Shown here in pieces: positions 1,725 to 48,167 of a DNA stretch of 64,000 bases (position 1 is its first letter; every line of letters begins with the position of its first letter). The notes beneath the pieces are model-generated. The model was not told the DNA's origin. It saw nothing but the letters and a program-made list of their open reading frames with translations, and ran no database searches. The translations under genes were made by a program, and so were the position numbers. Where the stretch lies: assembly GCA_000165345.1 (NCBI GenBank), contig CM000432.1, positions 704,001 to 768,000 on the forward strand, in the 5' to 3' direction.

Positions 1725-3548
1725 TCATTCTCCAACTAGGATTCCTTCGTTTATTAATTTCTCTCTTAATGTTATCAATTCCTTATCAATGCTTACTTCG
1801 TCTCTATTTTGCTGGTCGTTAATATCAATATTAATCTCTTCAAAAGATGCAACTGTAGAATTATATGCACTTGAGCGCCTAGATTCTGATTTTTTATTGC
1901 AAGTTTTAATGCTACTGCATCTTTGTTCAAGCTCATCTATTTCATTAACAACTGAGGTTAGCCACTTTATGCCACTAAGAACTAGTTCTTCTTGTTGGTT
2001 TTCGCTTATTAGGTCGGTTTGCCTTGAGTTCATACGGTTTGTACACTTTATCTTAGCATGATCCTTTGTCCGATTATTAATTCTTTTCATTAAGAAAAGA
2101 TCCTGTTTTAATTTCTGATTTTCCTTTTTTAATTTGTTATTTTCGCTTCTTAACGATATTAATTCGCTTCTGGATGAAATAATACCTATTTCTGAATGTT
2201 CTATTGTTGAACCATTCAAAAGGGGAAAACCCACCTGAATGGACGCATTTTTTTTAATAAAAGACCTTTTAAGTTTTTCATCTTGTTTAGAACCATTATC
2301 GAGGTTAACAACTATTTCTTCTGCAATCTCATACGCAAGTCTTGGAATAATTGATTGACATATTTCGAATGCAAGCAAAGACGCTTCATTATTGTTGAAA
2401 TTCTTATCTTCCATAAAATCTTTTATTGCATCGTTTAATTCTTCTTCTATATTAGGCAAAACAGTTTCATCATTGATCTTTTTATAGTGAGTTTCAATTC
2501 TGCTAATTACAGATTTTGTTAGCTTCAAACCTTCATTTTCCTTCATTACTAAATGCATTTCTTTAAAAAGGGCGTTCTTCGCTTCAGTAAGAGAAAGAAT
2601 TTCACCATCTGCAATTCTAAGTTGTTCAGTTTGAAATATTTCCAATTCGTTAAATTCTTTTGTAATCCTTTCTAATTCATTTTCAAGGAATAGTACCTTT
2701 TCTTTCAAACAATTGGCCCCTTCTAATTCCTTTTCATAATCTCTGACTTTTGACTCGATAGTTCTTACTTTATTCCTTAAAAAGTATAATTCTTCTTTAT
2801 CTTCCTCCATAAATGACCTACTTTTTAGAAAAGGAAGTTGCGCATTAAGGGCCAAAGAGTTAAGCTTATATTTAGATAAAAGTAATTCATTATTTTTTAA
2901 TAACGTATTTAAACGCGAAATTTCTTCTTTATAATTTTCATTTTCGATTAATAGACCATCTAATTCAGCATGAACTTCTTCTTGGTGTTTATTGGATGCT
3001 TCAAGTAAAGATTTGACTTCCAATTGTAATTCTTTATATGAAATTTCATTTTGATCTGTGGGTTTTAAGTTTTTTTGAATATTTTTTTTTTGCTCATTCA
3101 AATTAGTTTTAAATAGAGCAGGTTGATTATATTCAGTTTCAGTTTCCAAAACTGGTTCATTATTTTCATCATTATTTATTAGTTTTTTTTGAGATATAAT
3201 TGATTTATTATATTTGCTAATAAGATTATTAGATTTTTGAATATTGTGAGTAACATGATTTTCATTATTTTTGCCAATTTCTGTTATTAAATATTCTTTA
3301 TCTTTATTAAAATCTTCAATTAATTCTTCTGAATCTGAATAAAGTTGTAAATCACCTTCTTTGTAAATGTGTATATCTTCTTCTTTATCTGTTTCACCAC
3401 CAGAATTTTCTTCAGAGTAGTTGAACTCACCAAATCTTGGAGAACAAAATTCCATACTATTTTCGTCGTAACTCTCATCTAAATTCTCAGAAAATTTTCC
3501 TTCAATATAGGGATCATATTCTTCAATTAACTCGTCTAAATCGCTCAT
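1725..3548 (-). CDS. hypothetical acidic coiled-coil protein
   Basis: 607-aa ORF with acidic N-terminus (DLDELIEEYDPY...) and long heptad-like K/E/L-rich stretches; no recognisable catalytic motifs. Stop lies 13 bp from the stop of the convergent aminopeptidase gene. Confidence 0.45.
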   Translation of the reverse strand: MSDLDELIEEYDPYIEGKFSENLDESYDENSMEFCSPRFGEFNYSEENSGGETDKEEDIHIYKEGDLQLYSDSEELIEDFNKDKEYLITEIGKNNENHVTHNIQKSNNLISKYNKSIISQKKLINNDENNEPVLETETEYNQPALFKTNLNEQKKNIQKNLKPTDQNEISYKELQLEVKSLLEASNKHQEEVHAELDGLLIENENYKEEISRLNTLLKNNELLLSKYKLNSLALNAQLPFLKSRSFMEEDKEELYFLRNKVRTIESKVRDYEKELEGANCLKEKVLFLENELERITKEFNELEIFQTEQLRIADGEILSLTEAKNALFKEMHLVMKENEGLKLTKSVISRIETHYKKINDETVLPNIEEELNDAIKDFMEDKNFNNNEASLLAFEICQSIIPRLAYEIAEEIVVNLDNGSKQDEKLKRSFIKKNASIQVGFPLLNGSTIEHSEIGIISSRSELISLRSENNKLKKENQKLKQDLFLMKRINNRTKDHAKIKCTNRMNSRQTDLISENQQEELVLSGIKWLTSVVNEIDELEQRCSSIKTCNKKSESRRSSAYNSTVASFEEINIDINDQQNRDEVSIDKELITLREKLINEGILVGE

Positions 3549-5970: not shown

Positions 5971-6044
5971 GCGGGCTTGGTCTAGGTGGTTATGACGCTT
6001 GCCTTACACGCAAGAGATCACGAGTTCGAGTCTCGTAGCCCGTA
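5971..6044 (+). tRNA. tRNA-Val (anticodon UAC)
   Basis: Cloverleaf: acceptor GCGGGCT/AGCCCGT (G1:U72), D-arm with AGGTGGTTAT loop, anticodon stem CTTGC/GCAAG with loop CTTACAC (anticodon TAC), T-arm ACGAG-TTCGAGT-CTCGT, discriminator A; no encoded CCA. Confidence 0.8.
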
Positions 6045-11733: not shown

Positions 11734-11882
11734 TTTTCCCCATTAAAAATATATTCAAGAGATATGAATAAATATAATATCTGTGGTTTAACATAGTACA
11801 ATTTTTAATAGTATACTTATTAAACAATGGCAATAAGTTACAAAATAAAATTCTAATTCAAATACGAATTTTACCAAAAATC

Positions 11883-11954
11883 AGCCCACGCAGGGGATTG
11901 AACCCTGGATATTTCGCTTACGAAGCGAACGCATTACCACTATGCTACGGAGGC
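11883..11954 (-). tRNA. tRNA-Thr (anticodon CGU)
   Basis: Reverse complement GCCTCCG-TA-GCAT-AGTGGTA-ATGC-G-TTCGC-TTCGTAA-GCGAA-ATATC-CAGGG-TTCAATC-CCCTG-CGTGGGC-T. Good D, anticodon and T arms. The acceptor stem has one U:G pair and one C:U mismatch. A T-run follows the 3' end. Confidence 0.7.
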
Positions 11955-12207
11955 TAACTAGGTGTGCACTGGGAATTAAAAGCTAATTAATGAAAGCAAA
12001 AATTAATATTCAGTAGATTTTATGTACATAACTATCAGATTTTATCTAATAAAATATTTTTTTTTTTTAGGCAGCGGTACTAATGTTAAGTGCCGATCTA
12101 CAGAAATAACTTGTTGGCTACAAAAAAGTTTAATACAAATTAAATTATTCAAAATGGATACTTCAATATTCGAATAACTTTAATTTGCAGCCGTCACACA
12201 GTGAGTT

Positions 12208-12282
12208 TCTCCTGTAGCTCAGCTCGGTTAGAGCGTCGGTCTTATGAGCCGAAGGTCGCGAGTTCGATCCTCGCCGGGAGAA
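12208..12282 (+). tRNA. tRNA-Ile (anticodon UAU), intronless
   Basis: TCTCCTG-TA-GCTC-AGCTCGGTTA-GAGC-G-TCGGT-CTTATGA-GCCGA-AGGTC-GCGAG-TTCGATC-CTCGC-CGGGAGA-A, followed by TTTTTTT (Pol III terminator). The body is near-identical in architecture to eukaryotic tRNA-Ile. Position 37 is G rather than the usual A. Confidence 0.7.
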
Positions 12283-12405
12283 TTTTTTTCATAGTCTTTG
12301 CAAGAAAATAAAAAAAATTGACATTAATTCCTTAATGAATAAACGAGCGATGAGACTATAGCAATTGGCAAGAATAGATATTGGTTTCAATAAGAAAAAG
12401 CGTTC

Positions 12406-44117: not shown

Positions 44118-44705
44118 TTCTCATCTCCGCTCATTCGGCCATAACAGCCATTCTCGTTATTTTTAACAATTCGGAAAAACTATCGATTTTTTACTTGTAT
44201 TTTGTGAGAGGCGGGAATTTTAAAAAATAATATTTTTTTTTGACAGTTAAGAACACGTAACTTTTTCCTGATTATGAATATAAAGAAATAACATTTTTTT
44301 TTTAAGTTTAAAATAAAAGTACTTTAGAAAATGAATAAGCTGATAGATTATATTTCTACGCAAAAATACTATTTATACCAATACCTAAAATAGTTGCAAT
44401 TGCCCTGTAAATTTTCCGCATTCAAAAGTAAAATAAAGGAAATTAATAATAGATTTGTAATATTTCTTAAATATACTTGAGAGAAAAAAATTAGGAAATG
44501 GTAAAAATTTCACATTCGGCAGATATTTCCAAGCGGTATATTATTTACAAAGAAATTGCATGGCCAAAATTTATCTAACATTTTTTAGATAATTTAATCT
44601 CTAATTAATTAAGAATAAAATGCAAATTATTAAACTATTATATAATTATTGATAAATTAACTTTATTGCTCCCCACAAATGAAAATATATTTAGAGAGAC
44701 AGCGA

Positions 44706-44714
44706 TTTGGCGCC
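44706..44714. promoter_or_regulatory. E2F-like motif TTTGGCGCC about 150 bp upstream of RPS3A
   Basis: Exact match to TTTSGCGC plus a palindromic GGCGCC core. Confidence 0.4.
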
Positions 44715-44860
44715 GCATCTGCGTCTCTCATCAACACCTGGGACGAGTATAGTTAAAATGGTCAAGGTACGGCGTCTCAAAGCGCAAAAGCAACATTAAC
44801 AATAAAAGAAAAAAAGAGCTTGCTGCTTTCTTTTTTTATTAATTTCAATTAACATCGAAT

Positions 44861-45649
44861 ATGGCAATTGGTAAGAATAAGCGAATTTCTAAGGGTAGAA
44901 AGGGAGGACGTAAGAAAATTATTGATCCTTTGTCACGTAAGGAGTTTTACGACTTACGTGCCCCAAGTACCTTTAAAGTACGTAACTTCGGTACCACTAT
45001 TGCTTCCAAAAATCAAGGTACAAAGTTAGCAGTTGATGCTCTTAGACACAGAGTATATGAAGTGAGCTTGGCTGACTTAAACAACGATGAGGATCAGGCA
45101 TTCAGAAAGATTAAGTTGCAATGCGAGGATATTCAAGGAAGAACTTGCCTTACTGAATTCCATGGAATGGATATGACTAGGGACAAGCTCTGCTCCTTAA
45201 TTAGAAAGTACCAGACACTTATTGAAGCTCACTGCAACGTTAAAACTTCTGATGGTTATGTATTGAGATTGTTCTGTATCGCATTCACAAGAAGAATGGC
45301 GGACCAAGTAAAATCGACTTGCTATGCCCAGACTTCTCAAATTAGACAAATTAGAAAGAAGATGGTGGAGATTATCACAGCAGAGGCAGAAGGTACAACT
45401 CTACGTGATTTGGTAAAGAAATTCATCCCAGAGTCAATAGGTAAGGAGATTGAAAAGGCATGTAGGCACATTTTCCCATTACAACATGTATTTATTCGTA
45501 AGGTTAAGGTATTATCAAAGCCATCGTTTGATGTGTCTCGTCTTATGGAAAGCCATGTTGGTGCTGATGGTGTTGAAGAAAAAGGTACTAAGGTTGTTTC
45601 CGAATCAAACCAAGCAACCAATTTATTGACTGCTGAGATGAAGGCATAA
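44861..45649 (+). CDS. RPS3A: 40S ribosomal protein S3a (eS1)
   Basis: 262 aa: [46 protein letters not shown]..., collinear with eS1 throughout. Confidence 0.9.
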
Positions 45650-46114
45650 CTTTAAACTTTTCGATTTCATAGATATTATTAGGGATTATCTTCACATTTA
45701 AGTGATCAATTTCAAATTTGTATGTTCTCCTGATTTTTGCTTCTATTGCGTACGCGATTTCTGTTAGTGCATTGCAGAATTTGAAGTTCCTTTCAGAGTT
45801 CTTTGGAAGAGAAACGGACTTAATGAATAGTTATTTGATGCCAGAAAGGTCAATTGGAATAGCTTTTTTCTTTCTCCAAACACTTAGCACTTTGCCATAC
45901 AAGAGAGTTATTTTGTAGTAGATGCTAGCTAAAGTATTGCTCAAGGGTGAATTACTAATCTTTATAAGCTATTATTTCACAAAATAGTCTAAAGATTTGT
46001 TTGATTTCTTCGCTTATCCCGCTGTTAATTTTTTATCCAATTAATTTTTTTTAATAGGCAAATTAGTCTACAACTTAGCAGGCGGAAGAAATTAGTCGCA
46101 AATCAAATATTAAA

Positions 46115-46718
46115 ATGGGAGAGCCTTCTGAGAATAAACCCCAAAGCTTGCCAAATAATTTATTTCTAAATGATAACTTAAAGTTTGACAAATTGGATTT
46201 GGATGTAACAAAATTTAGAAGAAAGCAAGATTTATACTTTAACTCTTATGACAGGCTTTGGGGGGAAAAGGTAACTTATAGTGTGGGTCTATCTTATGGG
46301 ACAGGTATGCTTTCTCCCTGTTTTTTTATTAAGCAAATAATTATGATTTAATTAGGTTTTTGTTTGGGCTCTACATATGGGCTAATTAATGCAATGAAAA
46401 GGCCTGCACTTACACCTAAGCTTAAAATAAATTCAATCCTCAATGAGTGTGCATCTAGTAGTGCAAAAATTGCAAATCCACTTTCTATTATTAGTAAGTC
46501 CTCACGATATTGATGCGCCAGCGAGCATTGTAATTCACATAGCTTTATTCTATTGTGGGTTTTATAGAGCAACAAAAGCTATTAGGAAAAAAGATGATTC
46601 CCTAAATTCTATAATTTCTGGAGCTTTGTCCGGAGCACTATACAAGTCAGCGTCCTCAAAACGAGTTTTGGGAAGATATACACTAATCTCAGCAGGTAAG
46701 TTTGCGATAAAGAAGTAA
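46115..46718 (+). CDS. Tim17/Tim22/Tim23-family preprotein translocase subunit (closest to Tim23), three exons: join(46115..46304,46356..46493,46543..46718), about 167 aa
   Basis: Exon 1 ends ACAG|GTATGC with a 51-nt intron to TTAG. Exon 2 encodes GFCLGSTYGLINAMKRPALTPKLKINSILNECASSSAKIANPLSII. Donor A|GTAAGT starts a 49-nt intron to CATAG. Exon 3 encodes LFYCGFYRATKAIRKKDDSLNSIISGALSGALYKSASSKRVLGRYTLISAGKFAIKK. Phases are 1/1 at both junctions. SYGTG and GALSGALYKSAS parallel Tim23 CYGTG and GALTGALFKSSKG. A 50-aa N-terminal extension is Tim23-like. Confidence 0.7.
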
Positions 46719-46841
46719 TTTAGAGAGTTTTATTAATTTATGAAAAAAAAATTAAAAATGAAAAAAATATAGTTGCTTTTACTCTTATTGACCAAGTAAT
46801 ACGTTATAGTGAAAAATTATAGTCTATATCAATCTTTACGA

Positions 46842-48167
46842 TTATTTCTTTTTGTTACGATTTTTTAGTTTTCTATGACCAACTAGTGCTGTTTTTTCAT
46901 TAGAATCATTAAGTTCTGCATCAACAGTTCTTAGAGAGTCAACAACCTTTGCATGAATTGCCATTACTTCTTCTCTTTGTAAAGAAGTATACTCATCAAG
47001 TTTTCTATTTAGCGCAAATTCAATCCTCTGGAAAGTCTCAACGTCATATTGGGTAACCATAGAAATAGCTCTACCGCTCCTACCTGCTCTTGCAGTACGC
47101 CCAACACGATGTACATAATCCTTACTTGATGTCGGGATATCGAAGTTAATAACGAAGTCAACGTGTGGAATATCCAAACCTCTGCTTCCTACTTCTGTAG
47201 TAAACAATAACCTCTTTTGTTTTCCTTTGAAGAGATTCAATGCTGATAGACGTTGAGACTGCGACATTCTACCATGCAAACTAATGCTGTTAAATCCAAG
47301 TTCCTTTGCAAGCAAATCTCCTCTTCTACAATTGATACAAGTATTACAGAATATAATTCCAGTATATTGGCCCAAATTTTGGAGCATTCCAATAAAATAA
47401 CTCCATTTATACTTAAATGGTATAAACATATAATATTGCATTAAATTAGCAGCGGTATCATATTTTGTGTTTACACAAATTTTAATTGGATTTGATAATG
47501 AAATCTTCTGAAGTTTAGCGACCTTTGTTGTCATTGTTGCTGAAAATAAATAAGTAGTTCTATTTCTTGGGGACGATTCTACGATTTTATTCAATGCAAT
47601 TTCAAAATCCATAGATAACAATCTATCAGCCTCATCCATAACTAAGAACTTGATCCCCCCAATATTAAAACCCTTAGTGTTTTCTAAATGGTCAACTAAT
47701 CTTCCAGGGGATGCAACAATAATATGAGGTTTTTTTGCTAATGAAAGGGATTGCATAACCATATCAAGCCCTCCAACCAATGTTGCAATTTTCAAAGAGA
47801 TTAAAGAACCGAATGCAGAAAATTGTTCAGAAATCTGAACGCAAAGTTCTCTTGTTGGAGCTAATATAACAGCATACATTGGAACCTGATCATCAAGCAA
47901 TCTTTGCAATATTGGGATAATAAACGATCCAGTTTTGCCAGAACCTGTCTCTGCAAGTCCAATAATATCCCTTCCTTCAAGAGCTACTGGGATAGTCTTT
48001 TTTTGTATTTCTGTTGGAGTTTTCCAGCCTAAGGATTCACATGCAATACAAAGTTCTTTACAGACTCCTAGGGAAGCAAATGTTACGCTTTCCGAACTTT
48101 CTTCTTCAACATGTTCCGCTATTTTTGAAACATGACTTTCTAAAAACTCTGTACTTTTATTCTTCAT
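46842..48167 (-). CDS. DEAD-box ATP-dependent RNA helicase DDX47/Rrp3-like
   Basis: FASLGVCKELCIACESLGWKTPTEIQKKTIPVALEGRDIIGLAETGSGKTGSFIIPILQRLL parallels Rrp3/DDX47. Also DEADRLLSMDF, SAT, HRVGRTARAGRSGRAIS. Basic C-terminal tail. Confidence 0.85.
   Translation of the reverse strand: MKNKSTEFLESHVSKIAEHVEEESSESVTFASLGVCKELCIACESLGWKTPTEIQKKTIPVALEGRDIIGLAETGSGKTGSFIIPILQRLLDDQVPMYAVILAPTRELCVQISEQFSAFGSLISLKIATLVGGLDMVMQSLSLAKKPHIIVASPGRLVDHLENTKGFNIGGIKFLVMDEADRLLSMDFEIALNKIVESSPRNRTTYLFSATMTTKVAKLQKISLSNPIKICVNTKYDTAANLMQYYMFIPFKYKWSYFIGMLQNLGQYTGIIFCNTCINCRRGDLLAKELGFNSISLHGRMSQSQRLSALNLFKGKQKRLLFTTEVGSRGLDIPHVDFVINFDIPTSSKDYVHRVGRTARAGRSGRAISMVTQYDVETFQRIEFALNRKLDEYTSLQREEVMAIHAKVVDSLRTVDAELNDSNEKTALVGHRKLKNRNKKK

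What the first reader, a model, noticed from the sequence alone, without database searches (positions are those of the whole stretch)
46115..46718. Tim23-like (Tim17/22/23 family) translocase gene split into three exons that the ORF track reports as two unrelated fragments
Exons 46115..46304, 46356..46493 and 46543..46718 join with GT..AG introns of 51 and 49 nt and phase 1 at both junctions. The middle exon is invisible as an ORF but encodes the TM2-TM3 core (GFCLGSTYGLINAMKRPALTPKLKINSILNECASSSAKIANPLSII). Signature matches to Tim23: SYGTG (CYGTG in Tim23) and GALSGALYKSAS (GALTGALFKSSKG). The N-terminal extension is about 50 aa. A single Tim17-family member is what a reduced mitosome import machinery would be expected to retain; its exact structure matters for annotation.
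Basis: partly seen in the sequence, partly recalled or inferred. Interest (0 to 1): 0.5.

Follow-up and report, generated by a model that had tools for sequence, protein, structure and literature searches.

The report
Cryptosporidium Tim23 gene, four exons
This is the Cryptosporidium parvum gene for Tim23, a subunit of the protein-import channel of its relict mitochondrion; it is ordinary in kind, but it has four exons rather than three, and every C. parvum database model found here cuts it short.

Summary
The window is C. parvum chromosome 4: 3399 of 3399 bases match IOWA-ATCC CP044419.1.

**What held up.** The spliced product is a clear Tim17/22/23-family protein (Pfam PF02466, 74.7 bits, cutoff 32.7) of the Tim23 type. 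TIGR00983 (tim23) scores 77.5 bits against 31.3 for the tim17 model. Yeast Tim23 is the only strong solved-structure match.

**What did not.**
A GTAAGT donor at 46695|46696 is conserved in seven species. It opens a third phase-1 intron (46696-46772), followed by a fourth exon (46773-46822).
- The product is 176 aa, not 167. It completes transmembrane helix 4 and runs collinear with yeast Tim23 to the last residue.
- The four-exon model is already deposited for C. tyzzeri, C. muris, C. andersoni and C. serpentis. C. parvum records hold only 78-aa and 115-aa fragments.
- The "single Tim17-family member" idea is not supported. A published tree places a separate C. parvum Tim17 (Q5CT76) in another clade. 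The published "single Tim" picture of C. parvum therefore probably reflects this broken gene model.

No transcript data were available. This is a known gene with an annotation fix.

The parts
46115..46304 (+). Exon 1 (190 nt): ATG start, short N-terminal intermembrane-space region, and the start of TM1 up to the first base of the Gly64 codon
   Evidence: The ATG aligns in all species, and identity drops upstream of it. Exon length is 190 nt in all six intestinal-clade sequences.
46305..46355 (+). Intron 1 (51 nt, phase 1, GTATGC...TTAG)
   Evidence: Its length varies from 48 to 58 nt between species while the flanking exons stay constant. The position is the same in C. serpentis.
46356..46493 (+). 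Exon 2 (138 nt): rest of TM1, loop, TM2
   Evidence: Gap-free and 83% / 65% identical to C. ubiquitum / C. xiaoi, against 69% / 42% for intron 1.
46494..46542 (+). Intron 2 (49 nt, phase 1, GTAAGT...ATAG). The 115-aa C. parvum IOWA-ATCC and BGF models read through it.
   Evidence: Its length is 49-63 nt across species.
46543..46695 (+). Exon 3 (153 nt): end of TM2, matrix loop carrying the R-x3-D part of the PRAT motif, TM3, and the first half of TM4. It ends at the first base of the Val161 codon.
   Evidence: Purifying selection: 7 synonymous / 0 non-synonymous codon changes against C. meleagridis, and 22 / 3 against C. ubiquitum.
46696..46772 (+). Intron 3 (77 nt, phase 1, GTAAGT...ATAG). 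It holds the in-frame stop at 46716-46718 that ends the 167-aa model.
   Evidence: The GTAAGT donor is invariant in seven species. Intron length is 71-87 nt, with indels and 61% / 54% identity to C. ubiquitum / C. xiaoi. The read-through tails differ in every species: KFAIKK, KLGLKKKTFRQFVNLKKI, KLRNEKYFKHCI.
46773..46822 (+). Exon 4 (50 nt including the stop TAG at 46820-46822): ...(V)AFTLIDQVIRYSEKL*, the second half of TM4 and the C-terminus
   Evidence: - Codon-level conservation with synonymous changes: GCT/GCA, ACT/ACA, CGT/CGC, ATT/ATC, AAA/AAG.
- C. serpentis encodes VAYTLIDQLVRNME at the same place, after an intron at the same position.
- The C. tyzzeri annotated gene ends at the equivalent base.
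- The product is collinear with yeast Tim23 to the last residue.
44861..45649 (+). Upstream neighbour: ribosomal protein S3Ae gene (context; synteny marker)
   Evidence: The Pfam label comes from the orthologous loci.
46842..48167 (-). Downstream convergent neighbour: DEAD-box helicase gene. Its stop codon lies 19 nt from the Tim23 stop.
   Evidence: Synteny is conserved in all seven species.

Best explanation
This is the nuclear gene for the Tim23 subunit of the presequence translocase (TIM23 complex) of the inner membrane of the Cryptosporidium parvum mitosome.

Shown here:
- The gene has four exons: 46115-46304, 46356-46493, 46543-46695 and 46773-46822. They are separated by three short phase-1 GT..AG introns.
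- It encodes a 176-aa protein with an N-terminal region of about 45-50 aa and four hydrophobic helices of the Tim17/22/23 (PRAT) fold.
- Its closest relatives are Tim23 proteins.
- It is under purifying selection across the genus.

Inferred from what is established for yeast TIM23 (structures 8e1m and 8scx):
- The protein sits in the mitosomal inner membrane, back to back with the separate Tim17 paralogue.
- Its short N-terminal region faces the intermembrane space.
- Together with Tim17, Tim44, the PAM motor and mtHsp70, it forms the route by which presequence-bearing matrix proteins, such as the Fe-S cluster machinery, enter the organelle.

The gene looks fragmentary in C. parvum records only because three introns in a 531-nt coding sequence defeated the gene callers.
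For: Gene structure:
- The splice arithmetic works.
- All three donor and acceptor pairs and their positions are conserved in C. parvum, C. tyzzeri, C. hominis, C. meleagridis, C. ubiquitum and C. xiaoi, and in the gastric species C. serpentis.
- In the six intestinal-clade sequences, exon lengths are invariant at 190/138/153 nt, while intron lengths vary (48-58, 49-63 and 71-87 nt).
- Exons are gap-free and more conserved than introns.
- Substitutions in exons 3 and 4 are mostly synonymous.

The 176-aa form:
- It is already deposited for C. tyzzeri (TRY52065.1, one residue different). The equivalent 171-aa form is deposited for C. muris (B6AD68), C. andersoni and C. serpentis.
- The tail after the (Y/F)K(S) motif is 31 residues in both the 176-aa model and yeast Tim23, against 22 in the 167-aa model.
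- Peak hydropathy of TM4 is 1.78 in the 176-aa model against 1.01 in the 167-aa model (alignment).

Family:
- PF02466 scores 75.2 bits against a cutoff of 32.7.
- TIGR00983 (tim23) scores 77.5 bits against 31.3 for TIGR00980 (tim17).
- A genus profile searched against solved structures gives Tim23 47.1 bits (E=1.9e-11), Tim22 15.7 bits and Tim17 13.0 bits.
- The C. muris orthologue lies in the alveolate Tim23 clade of the published tree, next to Plasmodium Q8IDE0.

Identity of the window: 3399/3399 bases match C. parvum IOWA-ATCC chromosome 4.
Against: - No transcript evidence was available here, so none of the junctions is confirmed by RNA.
- The two recent C. parvum annotations (QOY42122.1 and WRK31904.1) keep intron 2 unspliced and give 115 aa. 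This could in principle reflect intron retention seen by their annotators.
- HMM scores hardly reward exon 4: +0.5 bit for Pfam and +1.1 bit for TIGR00983. The case for exon 4 therefore rests on comparative genomics.
- Part of the nucleotide conservation of exon 4 could come from the overlapping 3' end of the convergent helicase gene. The flank beyond the stop is 80% identical to C. ubiquitum, against 81% for exon 4.
- The TIGR00983 score is below its curated cutoff of 181.7.
- The strict PRAT motif fails at its first position, with T110 in place of G/A.
- The AlphaFold model of the orthologue was unusable, with mean pLDDT 42.7.
- Localisation and the Tim17 partnership are inferred, not shown.
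Confidence: 0.85

Rival explanations
1. Exon 3 runs to the stop at 46716-46718 and the protein is 167 aa, ending in GKFAIKK.
For: Identical models are deposited for C. hominis and C. meleagridis. The HMM scores of the 167-aa and 176-aa products are nearly equal.
Against: - The GTAAGT at 46696 is invariant in seven species.
- The tail after it differs in sequence and length in every species. The 16-17 codons after the AG at 46771-46772 are conserved with synonymous changes.
- The 167-aa product has a TM4 nine residues shorter than in yeast Tim23, and it ends in a charged tail.
Confidence: 0.06
2. In C. parvum the gene is decaying or truncated. Only the 78-aa or 115-aa product annotated in C. 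parvum records is made, and the mitosome works with a single Tim17-type channel, as the literature states.
For: C. parvum records hold only 78-aa (XP_001388071.1) and 115-aa (QOY42122.1, WRK31904.1) products. Published schemes show a single Tim17-family protein in C. parvum.
Against: - Exons 3 and 4 of C. parvum are intact, with intact splice sites.
- They encode the same amino acids as C. tyzzeri, C. hominis and C. meleagridis, with only synonymous differences: 7 / 0 in exon 3 and 2 / 0 in exon 4 against C. meleagridis.
- A two-helix fragment scores only 35 bits on the tim23 model, and the 78-aa fragment scores nothing.
Confidence: 0.03
3. The protein is not a Tim23 orthologue. It is a generic or Tim17/Tim22-derived family member that acts alone as the only inner-membrane channel.
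For: - The score is below the TIGR00983 curated cutoff.
- The N-terminal domain is only about half the length of the yeast one.
Against: - The tim23 model beats the tim17 model by 46 bits.
- In solved structures, Tim23 gives E=1.9e-11, against 0.082 for Tim22 and 0.55 for Tim17.
- The published tree places the C. muris orthologue among alveolate Tim23 proteins. It lists a distinct C. parvum protein, Q5CT76, in the Tim17 clade.
Confidence: 0.05

Closest known systems
Saccharomyces cerevisiae Tim23 (PDB 7clv, 8e1m, 8scx, 9j9b)
   Same: - The four-helix Tim17/22/23 core aligns from R47/W49 to the C-terminus. Query residues 46-162 pair with chain residues 90-208, and 14 residues are left on each side.
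- The GxxxG run of TM1 is conserved.
- The R-x3-D-x6-[GAS]G-x3-G part of the PRAT motif and the GAL(S/T)GAL(Y/F)KS motif are conserved.
   Different: - The N-terminal region is about 45-50 aa, against about 90-95 aa in yeast.
- The first PRAT position is T, not G/A.
- Similarity is modest: 44-47 bits against the yeast Tim23 chain.
- The gene is split by three introns.
Cryptosporidium orthologues with the full model: C. tyzzeri TRY52065.1 (176 aa); C. muris B6AD68 / XP_002140421.1, C. andersoni OII77590.1 and C. serpentis KAL7067241.1 (171 aa)
   Same: - The locus is the same, between the S3Ae and DEAD-box helicase genes.
- Three phase-1 introns sit at the same positions, checked on DNA for C. 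tyzzeri and C. serpentis.
- The C-terminus has the same V-A-(F/Y)-T-L-I-D-Q pattern.
- C. tyzzeri differs from the C. parvum product by one residue (R35K).
   Different: The gastric-clade proteins are about 46-51% identical and have a two-residue insertion in the TM2-TM3 loop.
Tim17 paralogue (C. parvum Q5CT76 in the Zarsky and Dolezal 2016 tree; yeast Tim17, PDB 8e1m_A)
   Same: Same protein family and fold. It is the expected partner in the TIM23 core.
   Different: - The present protein scores 31 bits on the tim17 model, against 77.5 on the tim23 model.
- Q5CT76 has its domain at 26-161 and clusters with C. muris B6AJQ7 and the Plasmodium proteins whose domain starts at residue 5. It does not cluster with B6AD68.
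'Single Tim' translocases of Giardia, microsporidia and trypanosomatids
   Same: They belong to reduced or divergent mitochondrial import systems built on Tim17-family proteins.
   Different: Those organisms are reported to have one family member. Cryptosporidium parvum appears to have at least two, Tim17 and this Tim23. Its placement in that group is therefore doubtful.

Membership tests
Tim17/Tim22/Tim23/Pmp24 family (Pfam PF02466) | Profile HMM match above the gathering score | tested here: met
   74.7 bits for the 167-aa product and 75.2 bits for the 176-aa product, against a cutoff of 32.7. One contiguous match covers profile positions 2-100/103 of 111.
Tim17/Tim22/Tim23/Pmp24 family (Pfam PF02466) | Four transmembrane helices | tested here: met
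   The 176-aa product has four groups of hydrophobic windows: about 53-77, 95-123, 128-147 and 149-173. The fourth is complete only with exon 4. The AlphaFold model of the orthologue shows helices at matching places, but its pLDDT of 42.7 is too low to count.
Tim17/Tim22/Tim23/Pmp24 family (Pfam PF02466) | PRAT motif [GA]x2[FY]x10Rx3Dx6[GAS]Gx3G (as given in the caption of Table S4 of PMC5072337) | tested here: not met
   The strict pattern fails only at its first position, where T110 stands in place of G/A. Y113, R124, D128, S135-G136 and G140 all fit. C. serpentis also has a 2-aa loop insertion that breaks the spacing. Yeast Tim23 fits the strict pattern.
Tim23 subfamily | Scores best on a Tim23-specific model and above its curated cutoff | tested here: inconclusive
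   TIGR00983 (tim23) is the best model, at 77.5 bits and E=7.4e-22, against 31.3 bits for tim17. This is below the curated cutoff of 181.7.
Tim23 subfamily | Closest solved relative is Tim23 rather than Tim17 or Tim22 | tested here: met
   With the single sequence, Tim23 gives E=1.4e-10 and Tim17 gives 0.65. With the genus profile, Tim23 gives 1.9e-11, Tim22 gives 0.082 and Tim17 gives 0.55.
Tim23 subfamily | Falls in the Tim23 clade of a family phylogeny | not tested
   No tree was built here. In the published Newick tree, the C. muris orthologue B6AD68 sits with Vitrella, Perkinsus and Plasmodium (Q8IDE0) sequences. B6AD68 is in the same 90% cluster as C. serpentis P0007. The clade's Tim23 label for Q8IDE0 rests on my own recollection.
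Tim23 subfamily | N-terminal intermembrane-space domain ahead of the membrane core | tested here: inconclusive
   An extension of about 45-53 aa is present, which Tim17 proteins lack. It is about half the yeast length and poorly conserved even within the genus.
TIM23 complex | A Tim17 partner encoded in the same genome | not tested
   This rests on literature only. Q5CT76_CRYPI lies in the Tim17 clade, and the C. parvum count in the Tim17 column is 1. The sequence could not be fetched with the tools available.
TIM23 complex | Localisation in the inner membrane of the mitosome and a role in presequence import | not testable with these tools
   This needs tagging and microscopy, or spatial-proteomics data.

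The most novel reading that the evidence does not exclude
Cryptosporidium parvum, and the whole genus, keeps a canonical two-subunit Tim17-Tim23 core in its mitosome. The published placement of C. parvum among the 'single Tim17-family translocase' organisms, with the channel said to derive from Tim17, is an artefact of this gene's fragmentary models (78 aa and 115 aa) in C. parvum records.
Probability: 0.75. Interest if true: 0.4.

Novelty: already known. Interest (0 to 1): 0.3.

Why it matters
**Annotation.**
- Every C. parvum record found in the protein collection holds only a 78-aa or a 115-aa fragment of this gene.
- The C. hominis, C. meleagridis, C. ubiquitum, C. xiaoi and C. ryanae models are also wrong at the 3' end or at an intron.
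- Anyone tagging or knocking out the gene with those models would target an intron or a false stop.

**Biology.**
- Comparative papers call C. parvum Tim23 'fragmental', or show C. parvum as having a single Tim17-derived channel.
- A complete, conserved Tim23 means the mitosome probably retains the ordinary Tim17-Tim23 pair.
- This removes one example from the proposed convergence on single-Tim translocases.
- It bears on how import works in an organelle whose membrane potential is under debate.

This is a correction, not a new kind of system.

Tried and rejected
1. Full HMMER search of the representative library with the spliced 176-aa protein.
2. AlphaFold2 on the C. serpentis orthologue with a 5-sequence alignment. 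Mean pLDDT was 42.7 and pTM 0.25, which is unusable, so no fold search was run.
3. Direct retrieval of the C. parvum Tim17 paralogue. No route was available. The word-indexed search would be swamped by other eukaryotes' Tim17 proteins, and the sequence table of PMC5072337 is cut before the Tim17 group. The paralogue claim therefore rests on that paper's tree.
4. Literature on Cryptosporidium import components. Alcock et al. 2012 is not held. Several reviews mention Cryptosporidium only in passing.
5. Other acceptor sites for intron 3. All other AGs within 200 nt give products that lack the conserved tail or read into unconserved sequence.
6. The antisense ORF 46348..46575 (75 aa) was set aside as a chance ORF opposite coding sequence.

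Full report
**Where the window comes from.** The stretch 44615-48013 is identical at 3399 of 3399 bases to Cryptosporidium parvum IOWA-ATCC chromosome 4 (CP044419.1:597950-601348, reversed). The gene lies between a ribosomal protein S3Ae gene (44861-45649, +) and a convergent DEAD-box helicase gene (46842-48167, -). This arrangement is conserved in C. tyzzeri, C. hominis, C. meleagridis, C. ubiquitum, C. xiaoi and C. serpentis.

**Checking the observation.**
- The three proposed exons join in frame through GT..AG introns of 51 and 49 nt, both phase 1. They give the quoted 167-aa product.
- That product matches Pfam PF02466 in one contiguous stretch at 74.7 bits, against a cutoff of 32.7. The 78-aa fragment matches nothing, and the 91-aa fragment gives 34.1 bits.
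- One detail is off. In the HMMER alignment, yeast CYGTG pairs with TYSVG six residues earlier.

**A third intron and a fourth exon.**
- Splicing from there to the AG at 46771-46772 keeps the frame (phase 1, like the other two introns). It adds ...(V)AFTLIDQVIRYSEKL, with the stop at 46820-46822, for a product of 176 aa.

Four lines of evidence support this model.

1. *Conservation pattern.*
   - In a seven-sequence alignment the GTAAGT donor is invariant.
   - The 77 nt after it diverge with indels. Length is 71-87 nt, and identity is 81%, 61% and 54% to C. meleagridis, C. ubiquitum and C. xiaoi.
   - The following 48 nt have no gaps against five of the six other sequences and one gap against C. 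xiaoi. They are 96%, 81% and 63% identical to the same three species, which is like the other exons.
   - Exon lengths of 190/138/153 nt are identical in the six intestinal-clade sequences, while all three intron lengths vary.
2. *Codon pattern.*
   - Differences in exon 4 are largely synonymous: GCT/GCA, ACT/ACA, CGT/CGC, ATT/ATC, AAA/AAG.
   - Exon 3 lies beyond the stop of the current C. parvum model. It shows 7 synonymous and 0 non-synonymous codon changes against C. meleagridis, and 22 against 3 versus C. ubiquitum.
   - The annotated read-through tails are unrelated between species: KFAIKK, KLGLKKKTFRQFVNLKKI, KLRNEKYFKHCI.
3. *Distant orthologues.* The gastric species C. serpentis has introns at the same three positions, all with GTAAGT donors. 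It encodes VAYTLIDQLVRNME after the third one. C. muris and C. andersoni fall in the same 90% cluster.
4. *Collinearity.*
   - Yeast Tim23 aligns at residues 90-208 of 222 with residues 46-162 of 176, leaving 14 residues on each side.
   - In a multiple alignment the 176-aa product ends at the same column as yeast Tim23, while the 167-aa product stops nine residues short.
   - Peak hydropathy of the last helix is 1.78 with exon 4 and 1.01 without it.

Two caveats apply. HMM scores barely change with exon 4 (+0.5 and +1.1 bits). No RNA data could be consulted.

**State of the annotations.**

| Species | Record | Product | Model |
|---|---|---|---|
| C. parvum Iowa II (and some newer assemblies) | XP_001388071.1 | 78 aa, 'mitochondrial inner membrane translocase' | unspliced exon 1 |
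| C. parvum IOWA-ATCC and BGF | QOY42122.1, WRK31904.1 | 115 aa, 'Uncharacterized protein' | exons 1 and 2, then read-through of intron 2 |
| C. ubiquitum | P0002 | 179 aa | reads through intron 3 |
| C. xiaoi | P0003 | 194 aa | reads through introns 2 and 3 |
| C. ryanae | P0008 | 127 aa | truncated after exon 2 |
| C. tyzzeri | TRY52065.1 | 176 aa | four exons |
| C. muris, C. andersoni, C. serpentis | B6AD68, OII77590.1, KAL7067241.1 | 171 aa | full-length four-exon form |

One C. hominis record is named 'TIM23-1'. Neither the 167-aa nor the 176-aa C. parvum sequence exists in the 15-billion-protein collection.

**What kind of family member it is.**
- TIGR00983 (tim23) scores 77.5 bits. TIGR00980 (tim17) scores 31.3 bits.
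- A profile of the genus searched against solved structures gives Tim23 E=1.9e-11, Tim22 0.082 and Tim17 0.55.
- Outside the genus, the nearest database proteins are a transcript-derived protein of an unidentified eukaryote (42% identity) and fungal proteins similar to yeast Tim23.
- In the published Tim17-family tree, the C. muris orthologue B6AD68 sits with Vitrella, Perkinsus and Plasmodium sequences in the clade I take to be Tim23.
- The TIGR00983 curated cutoff of 181.7 is not reached.
- The strict PRAT motif fails at its first position only, with T110.

I file the protein as a divergent Tim23 orthologue.

**Is it the only family member?**
- The tree behind that scheme contains one C. parvum sequence, Q5CT76 (domain 26-161). 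It is sister to C. muris B6AJQ7 with support 0.975, next to the Plasmodium proteins whose domain starts at residue 5.
- C. muris contributes three sequences to that tree: B6AJQ7, B6AHV7 and B6AD68.
- B6AD68 is the orthologue of the present gene, and Q5CT76 pairs with a different C. muris protein. Q5CT76 is therefore a different gene.

The simplest reading is that C. parvum has at least Tim17 and Tim23. The 'single Tim' label would then come from this gene's broken models. I could not fetch Q5CT76 itself, so this step rests on the published tree.

**How it most likely works.**
- Shown: an intact, spliced, selectively constrained gene for a four-helix Tim23-type protein.
- Inferred from the yeast TIM23 structures (8e1m, 8scx) and established knowledge:
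  - The protein sits in the mitosomal inner membrane, paired back to back with Tim17.
  - Its short N-terminal region lies in the intermembrane space.
  - Together with Tim44, the PAM motor and mtHsp70, it supports import of presequence proteins.
- The N-terminal region is half the yeast length. The receptor and tethering roles of that domain may therefore be reduced.

**Verdict.** This is a known protein family and a known gene with correct models in sister species. The value lies in an annotation correction for the C. parvum reference and a modest correction to comparative accounts of mitosomal import.

Noticed in passing
window 46820-46844: The Tim23 stop codon (46820-46822) and the stop codon of the convergent DEAD-box helicase gene (46842-46844) are only 19 nt apart. 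The two mRNAs must overlap at their 3' ends. This may add to the nucleotide conservation of exon 4.
   Followed up: partly
window 46081-46088: A GGCGGAAG motif lies about 30 nt upstream of the Tim23 ATG. It resembles the E2F-like upstream motif I recall being described for Cryptosporidium genes. It is retained as GGCGGAGG in C. meleagridis but is not aligned in C. ubiquitum or C. xiaoi.
   Followed up: no
L002 3001-3637 (C. ubiquitum), L003 3001-3643 (C. xiaoi), P0008 (C. ryanae): The deposited orthologue models in these species read through intron 3 (C. ubiquitum), read through introns 2 and 3 (C. xiaoi), or are truncated after exon 2 (C. ryanae). Respliced with the four-exon model, C. ubiquitum and C. 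xiaoi both give 174-aa products.
   Followed up: partly
L007 992-1333 (C. serpentis): A 113-aa gene with no Pfam hit is annotated on the minus strand between the S3Ae and Tim23 genes in C. serpentis. No counterpart is annotated in the other six species' loci.
   Followed up: no
window 5971-6044, 11882-11955, 12207-12283: Three tRNA genes were found in the window: Val-TAC (+), Thr-CGT (-) and Ile-TAT (+).
   Followed up: no
PMC5072337 Table S2 and tree: In that 2016 survey, Tim22 was found in 11 of 12 coccidian-group species. C. muris has a Tim22-clade protein (B6AHV7) and C. parvum has none. Given what happened with Tim23, the apparent absence of Tim22 from C. parvum may also deserve an intron-aware check.
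   Followed up: no
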